Shown here: in pieces, positions 1-8,325 of the stretch
How positions within the stretch are numbered: the stretch's first letter is position 1
Layout of the letters: every line of letters starts with the position of its first letter
Source of the DNA: a virus
Lineage: Duplodnaviria > Heunggongvirae > Uroviricota > Caudoviricetes
Strand: one strand, 5' to 3'
Length of the DNA: 8,325 bases
Virus record (IMG/VR): IMGVR_UViG_2609460221_000006
Coordinates: 1 to 8,325 of that record
Notes under the pieces: model-generated
Database searches by the model: none
What the model was told of the DNA's origin: nothing
The model's input: the letters and a program-made list of their open reading frames with translations, nothing else
Position numbers and translations under genes: made by a program

Positions 1-907
1 GTGCATCATCTAACGGGATTTCATCGGTCATAATGGCAGATTGCGCTTCGCGTGATTGCTTAAGCCACCATTTAATGGTGTCCCGATCAATGACTCCGCC
101 AGCAGTTTCCAGATCGATAGTCTTACTAAATTCCGGTCCCATATCTCCGGTTTGCGGATCGAAAAATATTGCACCTATTGAGATAATCGGGGCATCTGGA
201 TTTTTTCCCATGGTTTCAAGGTCGATCATTAGATGGTCACACGTCCCGCTGGTGGATGTGCCTTTATGATGACCGTTCACCTTAACTGAGTGATCTGTCG
301 CCTCGCCAGTTTCACTATCGCTATCGTGATGCTGATTGCCGCCAGGGTTCTCCTTGTGTGGATGTTCAGTGCCTTCCATTTCCTCCGGATCATTTTCCTG
401 AACTTCAACCTGATTCTCTTCATTGAATGTTTCCTGGTATGTTGCGTCGCCCATCACCGCGCCACAATCAGGGCAGTTGCCGCCGCCGGTCTGACCGCAG
501 GCGGTGCAGATCTTTTCCGGTTCCTGTTGCACTACTGGTTCAGGTTGTTTCGTTTCTGGCTCGTTTTGTAACGCATTTGGGCTGTTTTGTTCCGCTTTCT
601 GGCCGTTCTGTTCCGTTTCTTGCTGGTTCTGGTTCACAGAATCGCGGGTTTCCATCCCCTTGACCCATTTCGGATCATTCGGGTCGCTAATCCCTGCAAC
701 AAATTCTCCGCGAGAGGCCGCAAGCAACTTATCGGCGTCAGGCTGGCTGATATTGGCTGCCTGCATAATTTTGTTTACTTCGTCAGCGGTAACTTTTACC
801 TGATTAACCGGATCTATCTGTGCCTGAGTATCCAGCGATTGCGTGTCCTGGCGATGTTCAGTTGTATTCGGCTCCATTGCTTCAGTCGTTGCCTGTTCAT
901 CTGCCAT
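1..907 (-). CDS. recE: RecE-family exonuclease VIII, downstream portion (partial, runs off the window; separated from the N-terminal ORF by a frameshift)
   Basis: Minus-strand frame open from ATG 907 to position 1, translating [30 protein letters not shown]...[30 protein letters not shown]...[16 protein letters not shown]... The [10 protein letters not shown] / [13 protein letters not shown] blocks match what I recall of the middle of E. coli RecE. The same frame is open upstream across the stop of the 936-2144 ORF. Confidence 0.6.
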
Positions 908-935
908 TGCGTCAGACGGTTGTGATTTTTCCTCA

Positions 936-2144
936 TTAATTTTTTTCTTCTTCTGTTTCGCGTTCAGCAGCCAGTTCGCGGTTAACTTCTTCCAGGATAT
1001 CTTTTTCCGGTGTATGTCGTGCAGCAGCGAGAGTTTCCTCGGTAGGGTTCTCGTGATCAGTTTCCGTCAAATAGGCGTTGATATACCCCTGAAGGCGTCC
1101 CGGGTAGTGATAAAATTCAGGGTGTGCGCTTCGGATAAGTGCAAAAATAGCGGCGCGGGAATAATCCAGGATACCCGGGATTGCGCGAAGTGCTGCGGAC
1201 CATTCTTTGAACGGACTTTCTTTCTTCCGGACGACTTCTTTTGCGCGACGATAAACGCTGCCCGGAATTTCATAAATATTAAAATCCATCGGAAGTGTGG
1301 CCGCTGCAATCTCCACATCCAGCGTATCGAAGGTGTGTACTAAATTCGGATTGCGATCGGTTTTGTTCCCTCCACCGGCATTAGCACCGGAAGCCGTGCG
1401 GGTGATGCGTGAAACACGATTTCCTTTCATCCACTCTTTTGTCAGCAGACCGCGATCGGTGTAGTCAGCGCCCAGGTATGCTTCGAAAAAAGCAGTCATC
1501 AGTCCCAGGTCTGAATTACCAGGATTAGGGAAAACTTTGTCCGTGTCACGAACCAGTTTGTGGAGATCGCGAATTTCCAGCGGTTCGAGTTGCGCTGCTT
1601 TATTTGAGATGGCCAGCGCGGTAACGGCGGGAAGTTTTTCATCCTGTGCGTTATGTAATGTGCGCAGTTCGTCCCGCGAAACGTGTGTGATCGGTTTTTC
1701 GCTGCCGTGCTGTGCCAGCCATCGAACAGGCAGAATCTGACCTGAAACCGGCAGGAGCATGTTCTCCTCAATCTCAGCCATGTCTTCGCCGTTGACGTTG
1801 GTATTGTCAGTGCTGGCTGGTTTATCCTGAACAGAGGGCGAGGGCGCGATAAGTACCATTGTGATACCATCTTCACCGCCCTTTTCGTATCGGTTGCAGA
1901 ATTCGGTATCAAACACGCCTTCCGGAGGAAGGTCATTCACAACGGGTAAATGGACGCGAACAGGTTTTTTAAAATCCTCTTTGTCAAATCCGGCATCGTC
2001 CATTGCGACAACACCGCGTGATATTGCAACCGATAATTTTTTTGCTGTGCGCCAGTAAAAACCGCCTTTAATTCCAAGACGTTTTCTGATTTTGTCATTT
2101 TTGGCTTCGTAATATAGTGCAATTTCTTCTTTATCAGTGCTCAT
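936..2144 (-). CDS. recE: RecE-family exonuclease VIII, N-terminal 402 aa (ends at TAA 936-938, probably prematurely)
   Basis: 402-aa ORF with blocks [111 protein letters not shown], recalled as the RecE N-terminal region. GAGG Shine-Dalgarno 8 nt upstream of ATG 2144. Confidence 0.8.
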
Positions 2145-2221
2145 TGATAAACCTCATTACAGATTTAAGGGTGAACAAATCCCTGCCATTGCTGGCATAT
2201 AAAAATGAAACCGGATATTAA

Positions 2222-2425
2222 TTACGGTGCTGTTTTAAGCCCCGCCGGGATTTCGTTATTGTCCATGTGAATAACTTTATCGACCGGATAACAGTTGCCG
2301 GGAATTTTCTGTTCCGCTGCGGCAGCCATGCATTCTTTCATTGAGTTGTACATGCCGGTGATTGCATCAAGCGACTCACCAGTATTGAGATGTACAGTCA
2401 GAATGAGTACGAATAATGTGTTCAT
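2222..2425 (-). CDS. Small hydrophobic protein, 67 aa, YdfD-like by position (tentative)
   Basis: ATG at 2425 overlaps the dicB stop (ATGA coupling); GGAGA Shine-Dalgarno upstream. N-terminal hydrophobic segment MNTLFVLILTVHL. Its position directly after dicB corresponds to ydfD in the Qin dicB operon; sequence identity to YdfD is not verified. Confidence 0.5.
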   Translation of the reverse strand: MNTLFVLILTVHLNTGESLDAITGMYNSMKECMAAAAEQKIPGNCYPVDKVIHMDNNEIPAGLKTAP

Positions 2426-2610
2426 CGCCACTCTCCGAAAATACCGAGTTTAAGAAGGGCAATTCTGGAGAGTATGGAATTGTCATTCAGCAGGTAGGGT
2501 TCATATTTTCTCATATTGATTGCATCCTCGGTGAAATCCCTGTTACTGAGCAGAACACCAATATTAAAGCACCCGTCAGACGTATTAACGTTTGGTAGTG
2601 ACGTTTCCAT
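2422..2610 (-). CDS. dicB: Cell-division inhibitor DicB homologue, 62 aa
   Basis: Translation METSLPNVNTSDGCFNIGVLLSNRDFTEDAINMRKYEPYLL... matches the recalled DicB signature (LPNVNTSEGCFEIGV...FTEDAINKRK) at the same 62-aa length. GAGGA Shine-Dalgarno 7 nt upstream of ATG 2610; lies just downstream of DicF as in Qin. The ORF track's longer 97-aa version (to 2715) has no support for its N-terminal extension. Confidence 0.8.
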   Translation of the reverse strand: METSLPNVNTSDGCFNIGVLLSNRDFTEDAINMRKYEPYLLNDNSILSRIALLKLGIFGEWR

Positions 2611-2779
2611 TATCGCGTCCTCAACAATGAATTTTGTGATGCGGTGCCTGGTGCCTCCAGGTGACGTTAACCAGTTAACAATTAACGCCGGATACAGAGA
2701 ATCCACCCATAACACTGTTTTTGGTTTTAACTGTTCCGCGTGCGCTCAGCCGCATTCACCACATCACAAAATTCACTTT

Positions 2780-2822
2780 AAAAAGGGCGGCAGAGCAGTC
2801 ACGGAGTAAAACTGATACCGCC
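2780..2822 (-). terminator. Intrinsic terminator hairpin forming the 3' end of DicF
   Basis: Minus strand GGCGGTATCAG...CTGCTCTGCCGCC stem-loop followed by a run of 5 U (plus-strand A 2780-2784). Probably leaky, since dicB lies downstream in the same operon. Confidence 0.6.
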
Positions 2823-2837
2823 AAAAGTCACCAGAAA
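2785..2837 (-). ncRNA. dicF: DicF small RNA (Hfq-dependent ftsZ-targeting sRNA processed from the dicB operon transcript)
   Basis: Minus-strand sequence TTTCTGGTGACTTTTGGCGGTATCAGTTTTACTCCGTGACTGCTCTGCCGCCC followed by TTTTT, matching the 53-nt DicF as I recall it apart from one possible substitution. Ends in a GGCGG...CCGCC hairpin plus U-tract. The 5' end is processed, so it is approximate. Confidence 0.85.
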
Positions 2838-3172
2838 ATTGATAACAGAGGGCGTTGCAGCGGAGTTGTCACTTAAGCGTATGGTCAACCTGACAACCCG
2901 GTGTCCTCAACGGGGGAAGGAATAACCCCGCCATACTTACCGCCGCGCCATTTCGCGGATTGCCACAACCGGAAGCGCACGGTCGACGAAAATTTAACGA
3001 CAGGCTATCTATGAACCAGCTACCTCGCCGTGCGCTTTCGCGTTATGGTCTGACTTTTCAGGGAAATATCCTTTCAGTAAACTGTCAGTGCCGGATGCTC
3101 ACCCGTGTCCGGCGCACGCACTCCACCTCACCCGTGGAGAACTCCTTAATCACCAACCCTCAGGAGGGTGAA

Positions 3173-3448
3173 ATGTCGACTGAAAATGATGAAATCATTA
3201 ACTCCCTGATACGCCAGATTAATAATTTTGATAAAGCATTGCAACATGCTGCGGCGCGTAGTGATATAACTCTTTTAGCAATTTCATTTCTTGCATCTGT
3301 TATGGATAAAAATGAAGTCGTACGACAGAGTCTTGTTGATTATATCGACTCGCTTCAACCCGGCACTTTCAATCATGAGAGCTTCAATCATGAGAAAGAG
3401 CATGTTAAGTCTGTAATTAATTCTCTTATTTTGAATCAAAAGAATTAA
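3173..3448 (+). CDS. Hypothetical protein, 91 aa, in an AT-rich island (unknown function)
   Basis: Strong Shine-Dalgarno CAGGAGGGTGAA directly before ATG 3173. The in-frame upstream part of the ORF-track call (2960-3172) is GC-rich with no RBS and is rejected. Base composition drops sharply at 3173. Predicted mildly acidic and helical, with an FNHES-FNHE tandem repeat; no motif I recognise. Confidence 0.6.
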   Translation: MSTENDEIINSLIRQINNFDKALQHAAARSDITLLAISFLASVMDKNEVVRQSLVDYIDSLQPGTFNHESFNHEKEHVKSVINSLILNQKN

Positions 3449-3746
3449 TGCTTTTTGTTGCAAAGTAATTTTCAAGGGGTTCTATTCGAATCCCTTTCTT
3501 TTTCATTAACAAGCCAAACCCCTTATCAATGATGTCCATTAGATCCAGGAAGTATTTTTCATGTAAATCCTGGTTATCAGAGAGCTGCTTCTCTTCGTAC
3601 AGCCCGATAAAGGCTCGGCGTACGTTACCGGATATATTGTCGATGGTTTCTTTTTCTACGGTACTCAGGTCAAGAGTCGCCAGTTGAGAGCGAACCACAT
3701 TCGATGCCATTTCCTGGAATGGTACTGGTAAATCTTTAAATTCCAT
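3426..3746 (-). CDS. Hypothetical protein, 106 aa, in the AT-rich island (unknown function)
   Basis: ATG 3746 is preceded by GAGGT at good spacing. An alternative ATG at 3758 overlaps the upstream gene's stop (TGATG) and gives 110 aa. Co-oriented with the dicB operon, convergent with 3173-3448 and overlapping its 3' end by 23 bp. Acidic, helical, no recognisable catalytic motif. Confidence 0.6.
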   Translation of the reverse strand: MEFKDLPVPFQEMASNVVRSQLATLDLSTVEKETIDNISGNVRRAFIGLYEEKQLSDNQDLHEKYFLDLMDIIDKGFGLLMKKKGIRIEPLENYFATKSINSFDSK

Positions 3747-3757
3747 CGTCAACCTCA

Positions 3758-3910
3758 TCAGTCAGTGTTTCTGGTTAACCAGCGACGCGCGCCAGCTTCA
3801 GTTTTAAACGTTTTGCTTCTGGTATATGTCATCGCGGTAAACGTGCCGTCCTGGTTGGGAAACACGCCGCATACCAGAGATTCGTTGTTGCCAAGCTCGA
3901 TAGTATCCAT
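3758..3910 (-). CDS. Small protein, 50 aa, YdfA-like (DUF1391-like, tentative); first gene of the leftward operon
   Basis: ATG 3910 has a GAGGT Shine-Dalgarno 5 nt upstream. The longest ORF starts at 3991 (77 aa) but with a weaker RBS. Product MDTIELGNNESLVCGVFPNQDGTFTAMTYTRSKTFKTEAGARRWL resembles, from memory, the ~51-aa YdfA that heads the Qin dicB operon. Confidence 0.5.
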   Translation of the reverse strand: MDTIELGNNESLVCGVFPNQDGTFTAMTYTRSKTFKTEAGARRWLTRNTD

Positions 3911-4091
3911 GCTGACCTCATTTCCCCTTAACGCCGGGGTAGCGGAACAAAAACCTGCTGCATAGTTATTAAAGTTGAACCCTGCCGTCATGTTCTTACG
4001 CCTCGGGCTGGCTACTTAACCCCTGACCACTGCCGGGTAACTCGAAGTATTGCCTGGCGTTCTGTGGGGCGGGGTGGGTTGATGAATGAAC

Positions 4092-4131
4092 AATACCACT
4101 ACTATTTAATTATGTAAATAGCAGTGCTATT
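4092..4131. promoter_or_regulatory. Leftward (PL-like) operator region: two copies of a 16-bp AAATAG-N4-G(C/G)TATT site in opposite orientations
   Basis: 4116-4131 is AAATAGCAGTGCTATT on the plus strand; 4092-4107 reads AAATAGTAGTGGTATT on the minus strand. Together they form a 30-bp near-palindrome (4097-4126). The same motif occurs twice in the repressor/cro intergenic region. Lies upstream of the leftward operon, with TTTACA / TATTGT-like hexamers nearby on the minus strand. Confidence 0.45.
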
Positions 4132-4142
4132 ATCGTGGCAAG

Positions 4143-4164
4143 AAAAAAAACCACCCGAAGGTGG
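4143..4164 (-). terminator. Rho-independent terminator ending the paaR2-paaA2-parE2 operon
   Basis: Minus strand CCACC-TTCG-GGTGG hairpin immediately followed by 8 U (plus-strand A 4143-4150), 17 nt downstream of the parE stop. Confidence 0.7.
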
Positions 4165-4180
4165 TTGTTGACAGGAAGGA

Positions 4181-4471
4181 TTAACAGGTTTTGTTTGGAT
4201 ACTGTCTTCGTGAGTGAACTACATTTACGATCTCGATGTTAGATGCTGTTACTCGGTAAAGTATTATGTAGTTAGGATGAGTCACTATCTCACGAAGACT
4301 TGGAACTCTTTCGCTCGGTGGGTACAGATAAGGGTGTTCAGTAAGTGACAAAACTGATGTTTCAATGCGTATTTTTAGTCTACGTGCAGCGGGAGGGTTT
4401 TCCTTAGCAATATAGGCTACGATCTGACGTAAATCATCACGTGCAGAAGGTAGCCATAAAATGGGCAGCAT
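4181..4471 (-). CDS. parE2: ParE/RelE-family type II toxin, 96 aa (ParE2-like)
   Basis: Translation MLPILWLPSARDDLRQIVAYIAKENPPAARRL...REIVTHPNYIILYRV...IEIVNVVHSRR shows the ParE/RelE pattern. Start overlaps the stop of the upstream antitoxin ORF, a typical toxin-antitoxin arrangement. Confidence 0.85.
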   Translation of the reverse strand: MLPILWLPSARDDLRQIVAYIAKENPPAARRLKIRIETSVLSLTEHPYLYPPSERVPSLREIVTHPNYIILYRVTASNIEIVNVVHSRRQYPNKTC

Positions 4472-4662
4472 TACTCACTCCTGTTCGTTGCAGCTAATTG
4501 AGCAATAAGGTTTTCCATTTCAGCCATTACTTCGTCATGTGGAATTGCAGGACGGGGATCTGAGAGGCTTGCTGCCACTTTGGTTCGCAACCATTCGTTA
4601 TAGCTGTTTTCTTGTTCGACTGTTTCAAATTCAGAAATTATCGGGGAAAGGGCTGTACTCAT
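4471..4662 (-). CDS. paaA2: Small antitoxin, 63 aa (PaaA2-like), partner of ParE2
   Basis: 63-aa acidic ORF immediately upstream of, and coupled to, the ParE gene. GAGGAGG Shine-Dalgarno 7 nt before ATG 4662. Size and context fit the PaaA2 antitoxin of the paaR2-paaA2-parE2 module described in E. coli O157:H7 prophages; the name is by synteny and recall. Confidence 0.7.
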   Translation of the reverse strand: MSTALSPIISEFETVEQENSYNEWLRTKVAASLSDPRPAIPHDEVMAEMENLIAQLAATNRSE

Positions 4663-4679
4663 GTTTTTACCTCCTCAGA

Positions 4680-5181
4680 TTAGGCGCGACGACCCTTTTG
4701 CGCAGCTAGCCATCGCGCAACGATTTCTTCAATTGATTCTTTTTTCTCCTTCATTTCCTTAAGCATTTTCTCTTTATCTTCTTTGGGGAAAGCCCTGAAC
4801 GTCTGGAGCAAATCCCGCTCCATGGGGTCTATATTAAACGGAAGTTCGTTTTCCGATTGTTCCATATCTGCAGATATAGTGACAACATTGTCCTCCCCAG
4901 ATTCTTGGGGATACATCCTTACAATTTGTAACAACTCGGCCATATCTGGTCTGATTGACTCGGGAGGAACTTGCAGCAACCCTGCGAACTTGATAACAGC
5001 CTCAAGATTTAAAGGTGTCTGACCATTTAGATAATGGCTTACAGCTCCCTGTGTCGAAAATCCCAGAATTTCTGCCGCACGCTCTTGGGTTAACCCTAGT
5101 TGAATTTTTTTTCGCCGTCCAGATTTCTTTCAGTCTCTGGGCGGCTTGCAGGTCGATCTCTGACAGGGATTTTCTTTTCAT
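4680..5181 (-). pseudogene. paaR2: Lambda cI-like HTH repressor (PaaR2-like), reading frame broken in an A8 run
   Basis: ATG 5181 with GAAGG Shine-Dalgarno gives MKRKSLSEIDLQAAQRLKEIWTAKK, then the frame is lost in the A8 run (plus-strand T 5105-5112). The -1 frame continues (KK)IQLGLTQERAAEILGFSTQGAVSHYLNGQTPLNLEAVIKFAGLLQVPPESIRPDM... to TAA 4680. The joined N-terminus closely resembles the lambda CI N-terminal domain ([27 protein letters not shown]...). The intact-frame tail is the 4680-4979 ORF in the track. Confidence 0.75.
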
Positions 5182-5288
5182 ACCTTCAATTCTAATAAGA
5201 TTATTAATCTCTTTGAAATAGTGATGCTATTTACTTTTAAAAATAACAATGCTATTAATGATCGTGATGACATCACATGAGGTGAACA
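5182..5288. promoter_or_regulatory. Divergent promoter/operator region between the cI-like and cro-like genes (PRM/PR analogue)
   Basis: Two direct copies of the 16-bp motif, AAATAGTGATGCTATT (5216-5231) and AAATAACAATGCTATT (5241-5256), 25 bp centre to centre. A 13-bp perfect palindrome GTGATGACATCAC (5264-5276) and TAATAA-GA-TTATTA (5193-5206). Candidate rightward promoter TTTACT-N17-TATTAA. GAGGTG Shine-Dalgarno before ATG 5289. Confidence 0.55.
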
Positions 5289-5564
5289 ATGAATCTTGGA
5301 GAATATTTGCATCATTCCGGTATAACTCAGAAGCATTTTGCTGAAATTGTTGGGGTAACCCAAGGGATGGTAAGCCATGTCATTACCGGACGGGCGAAAC
5401 TTACGGGGAAAAAAATTTTACGCTGGTGCGAAGCAACAGGCTGGATAGTAACTCCGCACGAGATTGATGGCAGTACTTATCCCAACCCAACCGACGGCTT
5501 ACCTGTCGAGTATCAGGCTAACACACAACCAGAGGCGGGGGTGATTCATGAAAATCAAGCATGA
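5289..5564 (+). CDS. ydaS: Cro-like HTH DNA-binding protein, 91 aa (YdaS-like)
   Basis: HTH segment ITQKHFAEIVGVTQGMVSHVITG. Divergent from the cI-like gene across an operator-rich spacer; Shine-Dalgarno GAGGTG at 5279-5284. Confidence 0.8.
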   Translation: MNLGEYLHHSGITQKHFAEIVGVTQGMVSHVITGRAKLTGKKILRWCEATGWIVTPHEIDGSTYPNPTDGLPVEYQANTQPEAGVIHENQA

Positions 5565-5584
5565 ACACATCCGCATGGCAATGA

Positions 5585-5974
5585 ATGCCTGGGCGCATCC
5601 GGACGGCGAAAAAAGTACCGGCTGCGAAAATTACCAAAGCGTATTTCGAGCTGGGAATGACGTTCCCGGAACTGTATGACGACAGCCATCCGGAAGCCCT
5701 GGCCCGTAATACCCAGAAAATTTTCCGTTGGCTGGATAAAGACACCCCTGATGCTGTTGAAAAAATGCAGGCTCTGTTACCGGCGATCGAAAAGGCGATG
5801 CCGCCTTTGCTGGTGGCCCGTATGCGCAGCCACAGTTCTGAATATTACCGTGAGATCGTCGAACGGAGGGATCGGCTGGTGAAGGATGTCGATGATTTTG
5901 TTGCGTCAGCGGTTGTTTTGTATGACCAGATGAATCGCGGCGGCCCGGCAGGGAATGCTGTGGTGATGCACTAA
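5585..5974 (+). CDS. ydaT: YdaT-like (CII-analogue) protein; longest intact frame shown, native start probably ATG 5548 with a frameshift in an A6 run
   Basis: The 129-aa ORF from ATG 5585 has no Shine-Dalgarno and begins right after an in-frame TGA. ATG 5548 has a strong GAGGCGGGGG RBS and overlaps the cro-like stop; it encodes MKIKHEHIRMAMNAWAHPDGEK and then leaves the frame at the A6 run 5609-5614. One A fewer would give a ~140-aa product, the size I recall for YdaT. The gene name is by synteny with Rac ydaS-ydaT. Confidence 0.6.
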   Translation: MPGRIRTAKKVPAAKITKAYFELGMTFPELYDDSHPEALARNTQKIFRWLDKDTPDAVEKMQALLPAIEKAMPPLLVARMRSHSSEYYREIVERRDRLVKDVDDFVASAVVLYDQMNRGGPAGNAVVMH

Positions 5975-5996
5975 AAGCACGGTGTTCGGGGGTTTT

Positions 5997-6959
5997 ATGA
6001 GCAGCAAGCTTCATGGTCTTGTCTGGGAAGGGTGCGCCTTCACCGGCATGATCTTATCCAGGGTGGCGGTTATGGCCCGTCTTGCAGACTACAGCAATGA
6101 CGAGGGCGTGTCATGGCCTGCCATTGAAACTATCCGGCGTCAGATCGGTGCAAGAAGTGAATCCACAGTGAAATCGGCTATTGCAGAACTGGCGAAAGAG
6201 GGCTGGCTGACGAAGGAAGAGCGTAAGGTCGGTGGGCGTAATGTAAGCAATATCTATCGGCTTAATGTGGAAAAACTCGAAGCAGCTGCGGCGGCGGCGC
6301 GTGAGTCATATAAACCGAAAAGAAAAATTAGCCCGGCAAAAAATGACCCGTTAACAGTTGACCCGTCAAATATTGCCCCCTCAACGGTTGACCCGTCAAA
6401 TTTTGATGGATCAACTGTTGATAAAAAACTGCCGATTAGGGGGGCGATGATTGACCCCGATCCGTCAGTATTAAAACCTGATCCGTCAGATAAAAGATCT
6501 TCTTGTCCGGACGCTTCGCAACCGGACCCGCAGACGGCTGAACAGGATTTTTTAACCCGACACCCTGACGCGGTTGTGTTCAGTGCGAAAAAACGCCAGT
6601 GGGGAAGTCAGGAAGATTTGGTGTGCGCACAGTGGATCTGGGGACGAATCGTGAGTCTTTACGAGCAGGCGGCCAGCTATGATGGCGAGATCACTAGACC
6701 GAAAGAACCCAACTGGACAGCATGGGCCAATGACGTTCGCACAATGCGGATGCTGGATGGCAGAACTCACAGACAAATTTGTGAAATGTTTGGGCGTCTC
6801 CAGCGGGATTCGTTCTGGGTAAAAAACATCATGAGTCCGGCAAAACTCCGGGAAAAATGGGATGAACTGGTTATCCGCCTGGGGCGTTCGCCTGCGCAGC
6901 GTTGCGTGAATCACATTTCTGAACCGGACACTGAAATACCGCCGGGATTCAGGGGGTGA
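5997..6959 (+). CDS. Replication initiator, lambda O analogue (YdaU-like), with origin iterons inside the gene
   Basis: 321-aa ORF from ATG 5997 (GGGGG upstream); GTG 5982 is an alternative start. N-terminal winged-helix-like region ...VSWPAIETIRRQIGARSESTVKSAIAELAKEGWL. The central coding region carries tandem DNA repeats that encode the repeated TVDPSN / DPS peptides. Sits between the cII-like gene and the DnaC-like loader. Confidence 0.7.
   Translation: MSSKLHGLVWEGCAFTGMILSRVAVMARLADYSNDEGVSWPAIETIRRQIGARSESTVKSAIAELAKEGWLTKEERKVGGRNVSNIYRLNVEKLEAAAAAARESYKPKRKISPAKNDPLTVDPSNIAPSTVDPSNFDGSTVDKKLPIRGAMIDPDPSVLKPDPSDKRSSCPDASQPDPQTAEQDFLTRHPDAVVFSAKKRQWGSQEDLVCAQWIWGRIVSLYEQAASYDGEITRPKEPNWTAWANDVRTMRMLDGRTHRQICEMFGRLQRDSFWVKNIMSPAKLREKWDELVIRLGRSPAQRCVNHISEPDTEIPPGFRG
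6356..6489. repeat. Iteron cluster: putative replication origin within the O-like gene
   Basis: AGTTGACCCGTCAAAT at 6356-6371 and GGTTGACCCGTCAAAT at 6386-6401 (each containing the inverted pair TTGAC/GTCAA), TGTTGATAAAAAA at 6417-6429, and GATCCGTCAG at 6458-6467 and 6480-6489. Iterons inside the initiator gene are the lambda ori arrangement. Confidence 0.55.
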
Positions 6960-6965
6960 CGTGTC

Positions 6966-7712
6966 ATGAAAAACATTGCGGCAGTTGGGGTTCTTGAACG
7001 TATTCGCAGACTTGCACCACAGGGGTCGGTTCCACCGTACCGGACGGTGGAGGAGTGGCGGGAATGGCAACTTGCTGAAGGACGAAAACGCAGCGAGGAG
7101 ATTAACCGCCAGAATCGCCAGTTGCGGGTGGAAAAAATCCTGAATCGTTCGGGCATCCAGCCTCTGCACAGCAAATGCTCGTTTGCAAATTATCAGGTGC
7201 AGAACGACGGGCAAAAATACGCGCTGAGCCAGGCCAAATCCATAGCTGACGAACTGATGACCGGGTGCACGAATTTTGTGTTCAGCGGTAAAACCGGCAC
7301 CGGGAAAAATCACCTTGCAGCGGCGATGGGCAACCGGCTGATGGTGAAGGGGCGCAGCGTGATTATCGTCACCGTGTCTGACGTCATGAGCGTGTTGCAT
7401 GACAGCTACGACAACGGCAAATCCGGGGAAAAATTTTTACAGGAGCTTTGCGGGGTTGATTTGCTGGTCCTGGATGAAATAGGCGTTCAGCGGGAGACGA
7501 AAAACGAGCAGGTGGTATTGCACCAGATAATTGATCGCCGGACAGCATCACTGTGCAGTGTCGGGATGTTAACAAACCTGAATCATGCCGCAATGAGTAC
7601 GCTTCTTGGTGAGAGGATTATGGACCGCATGACCATGAACGGTGGTCGATGGGTGACGTTTAACTGGGATAGCTGGCGTCCAAATGTCAGCAATATGAGG
7701 GTTGTGAAGTAA
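6966..7712 (+). CDS. ydaV: DnaC-like helicase loader / IstB-like AAA+ ATPase, 248 aa (YdaV-like)
   Basis: Walker A FSGKTGTGKNHLAAAMG and Walker B DLLVLDEIG. AGGGGG Shine-Dalgarno before ATG 6966, which follows the O-like stop by 6 nt. Confidence 0.85.
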   Translation: MKNIAAVGVLERIRRLAPQGSVPPYRTVEEWREWQLAEGRKRSEEINRQNRQLRVEKILNRSGIQPLHSKCSFANYQVQNDGQKYALSQAKSIADELMTGCTNFVFSGKTGTGKNHLAAAMGNRLMVKGRSVIIVTVSDVMSVLHDSYDNGKSGEKFLQELCGVDLLVLDEIGVQRETKNEQVVLHQIIDRRTASLCSVGMLTNLNHAAMSTLLGERIMDRMTMNGGRWVTFNWDSWRPNVSNMRVVK

Positions 7713-7733
7713 TTTTGTCCGGAGGAAATTTTA

Positions 7734-8325
7734 ATGGAAACCGTATCTGACGCACTGAAAGCACTGAAAAAAGCCTCTTCACATGTGGTGGCAGCTCGCC
7801 TTGGAATCAGTCGTGAAGAGGCTGTCAACGAGCTGTGGGAACTCAAAAGAAAAGGCGTCGTTGATAAAACTGGTCACACCTGGTTTCTGGCTGGCGAAGG
7901 TGAATCCCGGGTAACCGAAGAGCGGCCAGTAAAATCTGAAGCACAGGATATGCTGACCGGGGAGGTCGAACAAAAAGTTACCGCAGACATGATGATTGAG
8001 TTTATCGGTCAGGATGGGGCTAAAACGTGTGAGGAACTGGCGGGTAAGTTCAGTGTCAGTACTCGCAAGGTTGCTTCCACGCTGGCGGTGGTAACCGCAA
8101 CGGGGCGGCTGGCACGCGTTAATCAGAACGGTAAATTTCGTTACTGCATGCCGGGCGATAATTTACCAGCAGAGCCGAAAGCCGCGCTGGTAACGGAAAG
8201 TGATGGTAAGGCCTTTCCTCAGCCAGCAGGTGCTGCGTTACCAGTCCGGGAAGCCGCAACACAGGAAGAAATTAAAACAGAAACTGTGGCGGACATTGTG
8301 CAGCCGTTGCCATCGTTTACCGAAA
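7734..8325 (+). CDS. Hypothetical prophage protein, partial (runs off the right edge), with two winged-helix-like segments
   Basis: GGAGGA Shine-Dalgarno 7 nt before ATG 7734; frame open to the window end (197 codons), so it is absent from the ORF track. Translation METVSDALKALKKASSHVVAARLGISREEAVNELWELKRKGVVDK...CEELAGKFSVSTRKVASTLAVVTATGRLARV. Corresponds in position to the gene after ydaV in Rac. Confidence 0.6.
   Translation, partial: METVSDALKALKKASSHVVAARLGISREEAVNELWELKRKGVVDKTGHTWFLAGEGESRVTEERPVKSEAQDMLTGEVEQKVTADMMIEFIGQDGAKTCEELAGKFSVSTRKVASTLAVVTATGRLARVNQNGKFRYCMPGDNLPAEPKAALVTESDGKAFPQPAGAALPVREAATQEEIKTETVADIVQPLPSFTE

What the first reader, a model, noticed from the sequence alone, without database searches (positions are those of the whole stretch)
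936..5614. Three independent frameshifts, all at homopolymer A-runs and all consistent with one extra base
recE (A7), the cI-like gene (A8) and the ydaT-like gene (A6) are each broken at an A-run on the coding strand, and each is repaired by deleting one A. Other genes with in-frame A6 runs (O-like, DnaC-like) are intact. This pattern is what homopolymer-length errors from long-read or flow-based sequencing produce. The alternative is pervasive slipped-strand decay of a cryptic prophage. The choice affects every functional call in this locus.
Basis: inference. Interest (0 to 1): 0.6.

Follow-up and report, generated by a model that had tools for sequence, protein, structure and literature searches.

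The report
Probable sequencing indels in prophage genes
Three prophage genes in this window look broken, but the window differs from intact copies in other E. coli genomes only by four single extra A's beside A/T runs, so the breaks are most likely assembly errors, not biology.

Summary
The three frameshifts are real features of the sequence as given, at 938, 5103 and 5609. With these four + strand A's removed, the remaining 8321 bases are identical, with zero substitutions, to two known prophage segments joined in a shared 225-bp dicB stretch. In those prophages all three genes are intact. None of the gene-breaking variants occurs in any complete E. coli genome carrying the same stretch: 0/177 for recE, 0/70 for the repressor, 0/2033 for ydaT. 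None occurs in IMG/VR in the same lineage either. At recE and the repressor gene the A7/A8 run has its normal length. The extra base is the single neighbouring base doubled, which slippage does not produce but which is a documented nanopore-assembly error type. The best explanation is consensus or base-calling insertion error (about 0.8). Real recent mutation (about 0.15) is not excluded. The ydaT A5→A6 change also occurs in another prophage lineage, and the intergenic A8 occurs in two other assemblies. The source assembly and its reads could not be found, so the decisive test remains undone. Treat the three genes as intact when making functional calls.

The parts
1..2144 (-). recE-like exonuclease gene. 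It runs off the window's left end and is interrupted after codon 402.
   Evidence: Apart from one extra base it is identical to the intact 818-aa exonuclease WP_001542183.1 of potC-integrated prophages. Pfam finds an Exonuc_VIII N-terminal region and an Rv2179c-like 3'-5' exonuclease domain at residues 637-808, downstream of the break. It is 56% identical to K-12 RecE over residues 50-588 only.
938..946 (.). Insertion 1: AA followed by T7. Relatives have a single A followed by T7.
   Evidence: 0 of 177 complete genomes and 0 of 16 IMG/VR loci carry the AA form.
2222..2610 (-). DUF1482 gene (2222-2425) and dicB (2422-2610). Positions 2411-2635 form the 225-bp stretch that is identical in both parental prophage types.
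   Evidence: Annotation of relatives and exact-match boundaries.
4143..4166 (-). On the minus strand this is the T-tail of a CCACC-TTCG-GGTGG terminator hairpin downstream of the ParE-type toxin gene.
   Evidence: A8 is also seen in 1 of 42 complete genomes (TUM13773) and 1 of 19 IMG/VR loci (L089). The hairpin was read directly from the sequence.
4181..4662 (-). Intact ParE-family toxin (4181-4471) and PaaA2-type antitoxin (4471-4662).
   Evidence: Pfam PF05016 and PF21217. Identical to relatives.
4680..5181 (-). cI-like HTH_3 repressor gene, 166 aa when repaired, frameshifted at codon 26 at the start of its HTH.
   Evidence: The repaired product equals WP_000824162.1. Pfam HTH_3 covers residues 26-74. 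No sequence similarity to K-12 RacR.
5103..5112 (.). Insertion 3: AA followed by T8. Relatives have a single A followed by T8.
   Evidence: 0 of 70 complete genomes and 0 of 22 IMG/VR loci. The exact 29-mer is absent from viral, genome and metagenome contig collections.
5289..5564 (+). Intact cro-position HTH gene, transcribed divergently from the repressor gene.
   Evidence: Pfam HTH_3. Identical to WP_001048458.1. Not similar to K-12 YdaS.
5548..5974 (+). ydaT-family gene (a CII-equivalent), 141 aa when repaired, frameshifted at codon 22.
   Evidence: The repaired product equals WP_000693845.1. Pfam YdaT_toxin covers residues 48-100. 31% identical to K-12 YdaT.
5609..5614 (+). Insertion 4: A6 where relatives have A5.
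   Evidence: 0 of 2033 complete genomes. In IMG/VR, 119 loci have A5 and the only frameshifting A6 is ISC41. The same +1 occurs in a different ydaT allele and prophage in ISC41 and in Logan SRR16060697.
5997..7712 (+). Intact O-like (5997-6959) and DnaC-like (6966-7712) replication genes, with unchanged in-frame A6 runs.
   Evidence: Identical to relatives. Run list.

Best explanation
The three frameshifts, and a fourth intergenic insertion, are most likely base-calling or consensus errors of the source assembly, not mutations. The underlying DNA is an ordinary mosaic lambdoid (Rac-type) prophage early region. Its exonuclease, repressor and ydaT genes are intact, as they are in its relatives. 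The errors are single extra bases placed in an A/T homopolymer (4143, 5609) or at its boundary, where a lone base next to a long run is called twice (938, 5103). Shown here: what differs, how exclusively the differences are indels, their tie to runs, and their absence from other assemblies. Inferred: that the cause is technical. The platform is unknown.
For: (1) Removing four A's gives 8321 bases identical to L004 (left part) joined to L001 (right part), i.e. 4 indels and 0 substitutions. Re-inserting an A at the four slots regenerates the window exactly.
(2) All four are insertions of one base, all are an A on the + strand, and all lie in or next to A/T runs (P about 9e-6 for runs >=5, about 9e-7 for runs >=7). 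Both places in the window where a single A precedes a T run of 7 or more are hit.
(3) At 938 and 5103 the run length is wild-type and the flanking single base is doubled. Slipped-strand mispairing changes the run itself. [quoted passage not shown]
(4) Census of variants: recE 0/177, repressor 0/70, ydaT 0/2033 complete genomes. In IMG/VR: 0/16, 0/22, and only the error-prone ISC41 draft for ydaT. The truncated products are absent from a collection of about 15 billion proteins, except the ydaT C-terminal fragment.
(5) There is no other sign of decay. Every other ORF is identical to that of intact relatives.
(6) A draft that is clearly error-prone (ISC41: seven homopolymer indels in 10.6 kb, including one that breaks the host gene mtfA) makes the same A5->A6 call.
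(7) Biology: a repressor null at codon 26, next to an intact divergent cro/ydaT/replication operon, should not be stably maintained. In K-12 Rac, loss of the repressor is lethal unless ydaS-ydaT are deleted (PMC5700373). This holds by architectural analogy only.
Against: No reads, quality values or source accession were available, so the artefact is inferred rather than observed. The ydaT A5->A6 change is shared by ISC41 and a Logan contig that is otherwise identical to a complete genome and lacks ISC41's other indel. It is therefore probably a genuine allele in that other lineage, which shows that the site can mutate and that loss of ydaT is tolerated. The intergenic A8 also occurs in one complete genome and one metagenome contig, so it may be a natural polymorphism. 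The K-12 lethality analogy is weak because the repressor and cro-position proteins here are unrelated in sequence to RacR and YdaS.
Confidence: 0.8

Rival explanations
1. The insertions are real, very recent mutations. The prophage has just begun to decay, or was selected to lose its exonuclease, repressor and CII-like YdaT, possibly in a mutator background.
For: A5->A6 in ydaT occurs in another lineage, in a contig with no other difference from a complete genome. It is shared with ISC41 without ISC41's other indel, so it is probably genuine there. The intergenic A7/A8 run varies among other assemblies. RefSeq complete genomes do carry occasional homopolymer frameshifts in this module, e.g. 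C5->C4 in the O-like gene of CP049196, annotated as a pseudogene. In K-12, loss of the repressor is tolerated only when ydaS-ydaT are removed, so a combined repressor and ydaT lesion has some logic.
Against: Four indels with no substitution are improbable for spontaneous mutation: about 1e-4 if indels make up 10% of events, about 4e-3 at 25%. The indel fractions are my own approximate recollection of E. coli mutation-accumulation studies. Two of the four events are not run-length changes, so slippage and mismatch-repair deficiency do not explain them. None of the three gene-breaking variants is seen in any relative of the same lineage. The cro-position gene, which corresponds to the lethal YdaS of K-12, and the operator region remain intact, so inactivating ydaT alone should not rescue loss of the repressor.
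Confidence: 0.15
2. The shifted frames are functional. Expression is restored by transcriptional slippage on the A7/A8 runs or by ribosomal frameshifting, giving phase-variable or low-level expression of the repressor and exonuclease.
For: The A8 run in the repressor gene and the A7 run in the exonuclease gene are conserved in every relative examined. Losing one A from the run in the transcript would restore the frame with a single N->I change. That RNA polymerase slips on long A runs is general knowledge and was not tested here.
Against: A programmed shift should be conserved, yet the shifted arrangement is found in 0/70 and 0/177 complete genomes and 0/22 and 0/16 IMG/VR loci. All relatives encode the proteins in a single frame. 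No stimulatory element was sought or seen. ydaT's A6 is too short for efficient slippage (my inference).
Confidence: 0.03
3. The window is an assembly chimera of two co-resident prophages, joined through the shared dicB segment, and the indels are a by-product of collapsing two similar copies.
For: The left part (1-2635) matches a potC-integrated prophage and the right part (2411-8325) matches a second prophage. Both lie about 180 kb apart in direct orientation in AP022069 and CP049196. No complete genome or sampled context has the window's exact arrangement.
Against: Lambdoid left arms of this type are joined to many different immunity regions in nature, so the mosaic may be genuine. The two parents differ completely around the repressor and ydaT sites: L004 has a different repressor, cro and 183-aa YdaT. 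Collapsing the copies therefore cannot create those insertions, and the recE-site insertion lies in sequence where the two parents are strongly divergent.
Confidence: 0.1

Closest known systems
Homopolymer-associated indel errors in long-read or flow-based bacterial assemblies (gene-fragmenting errors; PMC12007338, PMC9262707, PMC4719071)
   Same: Single-base indels tied to A/T runs that fragment genes which are intact in close relatives, with few or no substitutions. This includes the specific 'run + single base + erroneous second copy of that base' insertion context reported for MinION assemblies.
   Different: All four events here are insertions, whereas nanopore errors in long runs are more often deletions. 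The platform, the reads and the genome-wide error rate of the source are unknown.
E. coli ISC41 draft assembly (GCA_000529555.1, contig CBWR010000012.1)
   Same: It carries the same A5->A6 frameshift in ydaT, among seven homopolymer indels in 10.6 kb that also break the host gene mtfA and an integrase.
   Different: It is a different prophage (LexA-type repressor, P22-Cro-type gene) with a different ydaT allele. Its A6 is shared with an otherwise clean Logan contig, so it may be genuine there.
Intact relatives of the same prophage modules: AP022069, CP163115 and CP049196 (right part); CP023820 and >100 others (exonuclease part)
   Same: 100% nucleotide identity outside the four inserted bases.
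   Different: All three genes are intact and annotated as an 818-aa exonuclease, a 166-aa HTH protein and a 141-aa YdaT-family protein. The two parts lie in separate prophages in those genomes.
K-12 Rac prophage RacR / YdaS / YdaT module and RecE
   Same: Same gene order and divergent repressor/cro architecture. YdaT is homologous (31% identity). The exonuclease N-terminal region is homologous (56% identity).
   Different: The repressor and cro-position proteins have no detectable sequence similarity to RacR or YdaS. The exonuclease has an Rv2179c-like C-terminal domain instead of RecE's nuclease domain, and no recT follows it. A ParE/PaaA2 pair is present.

Membership tests
Sequencing / consensus indel artefact | Differences from near-identical independent assemblies are single-base indels in or beside homopolymers | tested here: met
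   Four 1-base insertions, all in or next to A/T runs >=5.
Sequencing / consensus indel artefact | Indels greatly outnumber substitutions relative to the closest references | tested here: met
   4 indels and 0 substitutions over 8321 bases.
Sequencing / consensus indel artefact | The variants are not reproduced in independent assemblies of the same sequence | tested here: inconclusive
   Met for recE (0/177, 0/16) and the repressor gene (0/70, 0/22). ydaT A6 is absent from 2033 complete genomes but present in another lineage in two assemblies. The intergenic A8 is present in 2 of 61 others.
Sequencing / consensus indel artefact | Reads disagree with the consensus, or frameshifts are in excess genome-wide, including in essential genes | not testable with these tools
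   The source assembly was not found in any collection.
Slipped-strand mutation / pseudogene decay of a cryptic prophage | The length of the repeat run itself changes | tested here: not met
   True at 4143 and 5609 only. At 938 and 5103 the run length is wild-type and the flanking single base is doubled.
Slipped-strand mutation / pseudogene decay of a cryptic prophage | Accompanied by other decay (substitutions, deletions, IS elements) or shared by descent with relatives | tested here: not met
   No substitutions, and all other ORFs are identical to those of intact relatives. No relative of the same lineage shares any of the three lesions.
Programmed frameshift / transcriptional slippage gene | The two-frame arrangement is conserved among homologues | tested here: not met
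   Every relative encodes each protein in one frame.
RacR-YdaS-YdaT module of Rac | Repressor homologous to RacR and cro-position protein homologous to YdaS | tested here: not met
   BLASTP finds no significant alignment.
RacR-YdaS-YdaT module of Rac | YdaT-family protein downstream of a cro-position gene that is divergent from a repressor gene | tested here: met
   Pfam YdaT_toxin at 2.8e-10, 31% identity to K-12 YdaT, and the same gene order.
RecE (exonuclease VIII) | C-terminal RecE 5'-3' nuclease domain, paired with recT | tested here: not met
   The alignment to K-12 RecE ends at residue 588. The C-terminus is Rv2179c-like (PF16473). No recT is found in relatives.

The most novel reading that the evidence does not exclude
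The lesions are real and linked. The same +1 at the short A5 run of ydaT has arisen independently in at least two prophage lineages, as a route to silencing the CII-like or toxic YdaT. In this strain it accompanies, and perhaps permits, loss of the prophage repressor and the exonuclease. This would be a snapshot of the first steps of prophage domestication, before any substitution has accumulated.
Probability: 0.07. Interest if true: 0.4.

Novelty: not a real feature. Interest (0 to 1): 0.1.

Why it matters
It matters mainly for annotation. If the insertions are artefacts, the exonuclease, the immunity repressor and the YdaT regulator of this prophage should be called intact. The locus should not be described as a decaying cryptic prophage or as a repressor-less one. 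An error density of about one indel per 2 kb would also mean that every frameshift in the source assembly needs polishing before interpretation. If instead the insertions were real, the co-occurrence of repressor and ydaT lesions would be a modestly interesting case of prophage domestication.

Tried and rejected
(1) Finding the source assembly. Exact look-ups of the truncated products, an exact 29-mer across the repressor-gene variant in viral, genome and metagenome contigs, the ydaT A6 pattern in viral and metagenome contigs, and the genomic contexts of the junction-side DUF1482 protein all failed to find it.

(2) The Logan contig that encodes the exact 402-aa recE fragment looked like independent support. 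However, it ends at window 939, before the extra base and the stop codon. An exact-product look-up can only return a cut gene that ends at that codon, so the match is a selection effect.

(3) E. coli ISC41 looked like the source because it holds the exact 129-aa ydaT fragment. It is a different prophage. The only IMG/VR A6 hit is the same ISC41 contig.

(4) L108 in IMG/VR looked like another A6. It is an in-frame G->A substitution.

(5) Using the mosaic junction as evidence of misassembly was rejected, because this left arm is naturally joined to many different immunity regions.

(6) The K-12 'racR is essential' argument against a real repressor knockout was kept only as an analogy, because the proteins are not homologous.

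It was replaced by window-derived one-sided patterns.

(8) A literature search for how ISC41 was sequenced found nothing.

(9) My first calculation of the association with runs used two slot coordinates that were off by one. It was corrected.


Full report
WHAT THE WINDOW IS. The window is the early region of a Rac-type lambdoid prophage of E. coli.
- On the minus strand: a recE-like exonuclease gene (1-2144, running off the left end), a DUF1482 gene, dicB, small ORFs, a ParE/PaaA2 toxin-antitoxin pair (4181-4662) and a cI-like HTH repressor gene (4680-5181).
- On the plus strand: a cro-position HTH gene (5289-5564), ydaT (5548-5974), O-like (5997-6959) and DnaC-like (6966-7712) replication genes, and a DUF1627 gene.
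These names come from the RefSeq annotation of near-identical relatives and from Pfam.

CHECKING THE OBSERVATION.
- The exonuclease ORF stops after codon 402, at 936-938, just after the coding-strand A7.
- The repressor ORF shifts after codon 26, at the coding-strand A8.
- ydaT shifts after codon 22, at A6.
- Deleting one base at each site restores a full-length frame.

BASE-BY-BASE COMPARISON. Comparison with relatives changes the description.
- From 2411 to the end, the window is identical to a prophage present in three independent complete genomes (AP022069, CP163115, CP049196), except for three extra bases at 4143, 5103 and 5609.
- From 1 to 2635, it is identical to the exonuclease arm of a potC-integrated prophage found in more than 100 complete genomes, except for one extra base at 938.
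- Removing the four bases gives 8321 bases that equal the join of the two references, with no substitution. Re-inserting an A at the four slots regenerates the window exactly.
- In the references all three genes are intact: 818, 166 and 141 aa.

First, at the exonuclease and repressor sites the run is not lengthened. Relatives also have A7 and A8. The extra base is the lone neighbouring base doubled: + strand A1T7->A2T7 and A1T8->A2T8.

IS IT MORE THAN CHANCE? All four insertions lie in or beside runs of 5 or more (P about 9e-6). Three lie at the window's five runs of 7 or more (P about 9e-7). Both places where a single A precedes a T-run of 7 or more are hit. All four inserted bases are an A on the + strand.

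CENSUS IN OTHER ASSEMBLIES. I queried 81-nt stretches centred on each site against 5,426 complete RefSeq E. coli genomes.
- The window's version occurs in 0 of 177 genomes carrying the exonuclease stretch, 0 of 70 carrying the repressor stretch and 0 of 2033 carrying the ydaT stretch. It occurs in 1 of 42 (TUM13773) for the intergenic run.
- In IMG/VR, 16/16 exonuclease loci and 22/22 repressor loci are wild-type. For ydaT, 119 loci are A5. The only frameshifting A6 is the ISC41 contig. One apparent A6 (L108) is an in-frame G->A substitution. The intergenic run is A7 in 18 loci and A8 in 1.
- The repressor-gene variant 29-mer is absent from the viral, genome and metagenome contig collections. 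The ydaT A6 pattern is absent from the metagenome contigs.
- The truncated products are absent from a collection of about 15 billion proteins, except the 129-aa ydaT C-terminal ORF.
- A Logan contig that encodes the exact 402-aa exonuclease fragment ends one base before the inserted base, so it gives no support.

THE ydaT PRECEDENT. The 129-aa product led to E. coli ISC41 (GCA_000529555.1) and a Logan assembly of SRR16060697. Both have a different immunity region (LexA-type repressor, P22-Cro-type gene) and a slightly different ydaT allele, yet both have A6.
- That allele with A6 is also absent from complete genomes: 0 of 2446.
- ISC41 is visibly error-prone. It has seven homopolymer indels in 10.6 kb against its nearest complete relative, and these break mtfA and an integrase.
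- The Logan contig differs from a complete genome only by this A6. It shares A6 with ISC41 but not ISC41's neighbouring indel.
- So A6 is probably a genuine allele in that lineage. This shows the site can mutate and that loss of ydaT is tolerated. It keeps a real origin for the window's ydaT change, and likewise for the intergenic A8, from being excluded.

BEST EXPLANATION: assembly or consensus insertion errors, confidence about 0.8. The grounds are as follows.
- There are four insertions and no substitutions against references that are otherwise identical.
- The insertions are strictly tied to A/T runs.
- Two of the events are a flanking single base doubled beside a run of normal length. Replication slippage, which changes the run itself, does not produce this. 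[quoted passage not shown] Homopolymer-linked indels are the dominant residual error of long-read and flow-based platforms.
- The gene-breaking variants are absent from every independent assembly of the same lineage.
- No other decay is present.
- It is biologically implausible that a repressor null at codon 26 would be stably carried next to an intact divergent lytic operon.
On the last point, in K-12 Rac, racR can be deleted only when ydaS-ydaT are removed, and ydaS alone is lethal (PMC5700373). Here the cro-position gene and the operator region are intact. This argument is only an analogy, because the repressor and cro-position proteins show no similarity to RacR or YdaS, whereas YdaT is 31% identical.

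RIVALS.
- Real recent mutation, about 0.15. It is supported by the ydaT and intergenic precedents. It is opposed by the 4:0 indel-to-substitution ratio (about 1e-4 to 4e-3 under plausible indel fractions, where the fractions are my approximate recollection), by the two non-slippage events, and by the lack of any relative sharing the lesions.
- Programmed frameshifting or transcriptional slippage, about 0.03. It fails the conservation test.
- Assembly chimera. In AP022069 and CP049196 the two parental prophages lie about 180 kb apart in direct orientation and share a 225-bp dicB segment. However, this left arm is naturally joined to many immunity regions. In addition, collapsing the copies cannot create the insertions in the repressor and ydaT genes, which the other parent lacks. 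The mosaic is therefore left as noticed, not as evidence.

COMPARISON WITH WHAT IS KNOWN. As a phenomenon, this is the familiar gene-fragmenting homopolymer error of imperfectly polished assemblies. As a locus, it is an ordinary mosaic Rac-type early region.
- The 'recE' label is only partly right. The protein aligns to K-12 RecE at 56% identity up to residue 588, then carries an Rv2179c-like 3'-5' exonuclease domain, and it has no recT partner.
- The 'cI-like' and 'ydaT-like' labels are acceptable.

WHAT COULD NOT BE DONE. The source assembly, its platform and its reads were not found.

VERDICT. It is not a real biological feature, and its interest is low. Treat the three genes as intact when making functional calls.

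Noticed in passing
It lies in the T-tail of a CCACC-TTCG-GGTGG terminator hairpin downstream of the ParE-type toxin gene. A8 also occurs in TUM13773 (CP128912) and in one IMG/VR metagenome contig (L089), so this run varies among assemblies.
   Followed up: yes
window 1-2635 versus 2411-8325: The window is a mosaic. The left arm is identical to a potC-integrated prophage, and the rest is identical to a second prophage lying about 180 kb away in the same orientation in AP022069 and CP049196. The two overlap in an identical 225-bp dicB segment. No complete genome or sampled context has this exact join, and potC-type relatives carry an extra Rha module plus a partial dicB copy at that point.
   Followed up: partly
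window 1-2144 (-); L004 6687-9143: The gene called recE is a hybrid. Its N-terminal ~590 residues are 56% identical to K-12 RecE, but its C-terminal nuclease domain is Rv2179c-like (DEDD-type 3'-5' exonuclease) rather than RecE's. In relatives, no recT lies between it and the excisionase gene.
   Followed up: partly
L007 10025, L008 1313 (ydaT of another prophage lineage): The same A5->A6 frameshift in ydaT is present in E. coli ISC41 and in a Logan assembly of SRR16060697, in a different immunity context. The Logan contig has no other difference from complete genome TUM14697, so this is probably a genuine, rare ydaT-null allele. It is absent from 2446 complete genomes.
   Followed up: partly
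L007 (GCA_000529555.1, CBWR010000012.1) 1694-10025: The ISC41 draft carries seven homopolymer-length indels in 10.6 kb relative to its nearest complete relative (including T5->T9 and T7->T8). They fragment an integrase and the conserved host gene mtfA. It is a clearly error-prone public assembly.
   Followed up: yes
L003 (CP049196), position corresponding to window 6376: This RefSeq complete genome has its own homopolymer frameshift (C5->C4) in the O-like replication gene, annotated as a frameshifted pseudogene.
   Followed up: no
window 4181-4662 (-): An intact ParE-family toxin / PaaA2-type antitoxin pair is inserted between the repressor gene and the DUF1391 region of the immunity module. 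K-12 Rac has nothing at that position.
   Followed up: no
window 5105-5112 and 940-946: The in-frame A8 run (codons 23-26 of the repressor gene) and the A7 run in the exonuclease gene are conserved in every relative examined (92 and 193 sequences). Runs this long are potential transcriptional-slippage sites, but this was not investigated.
   Followed up: no
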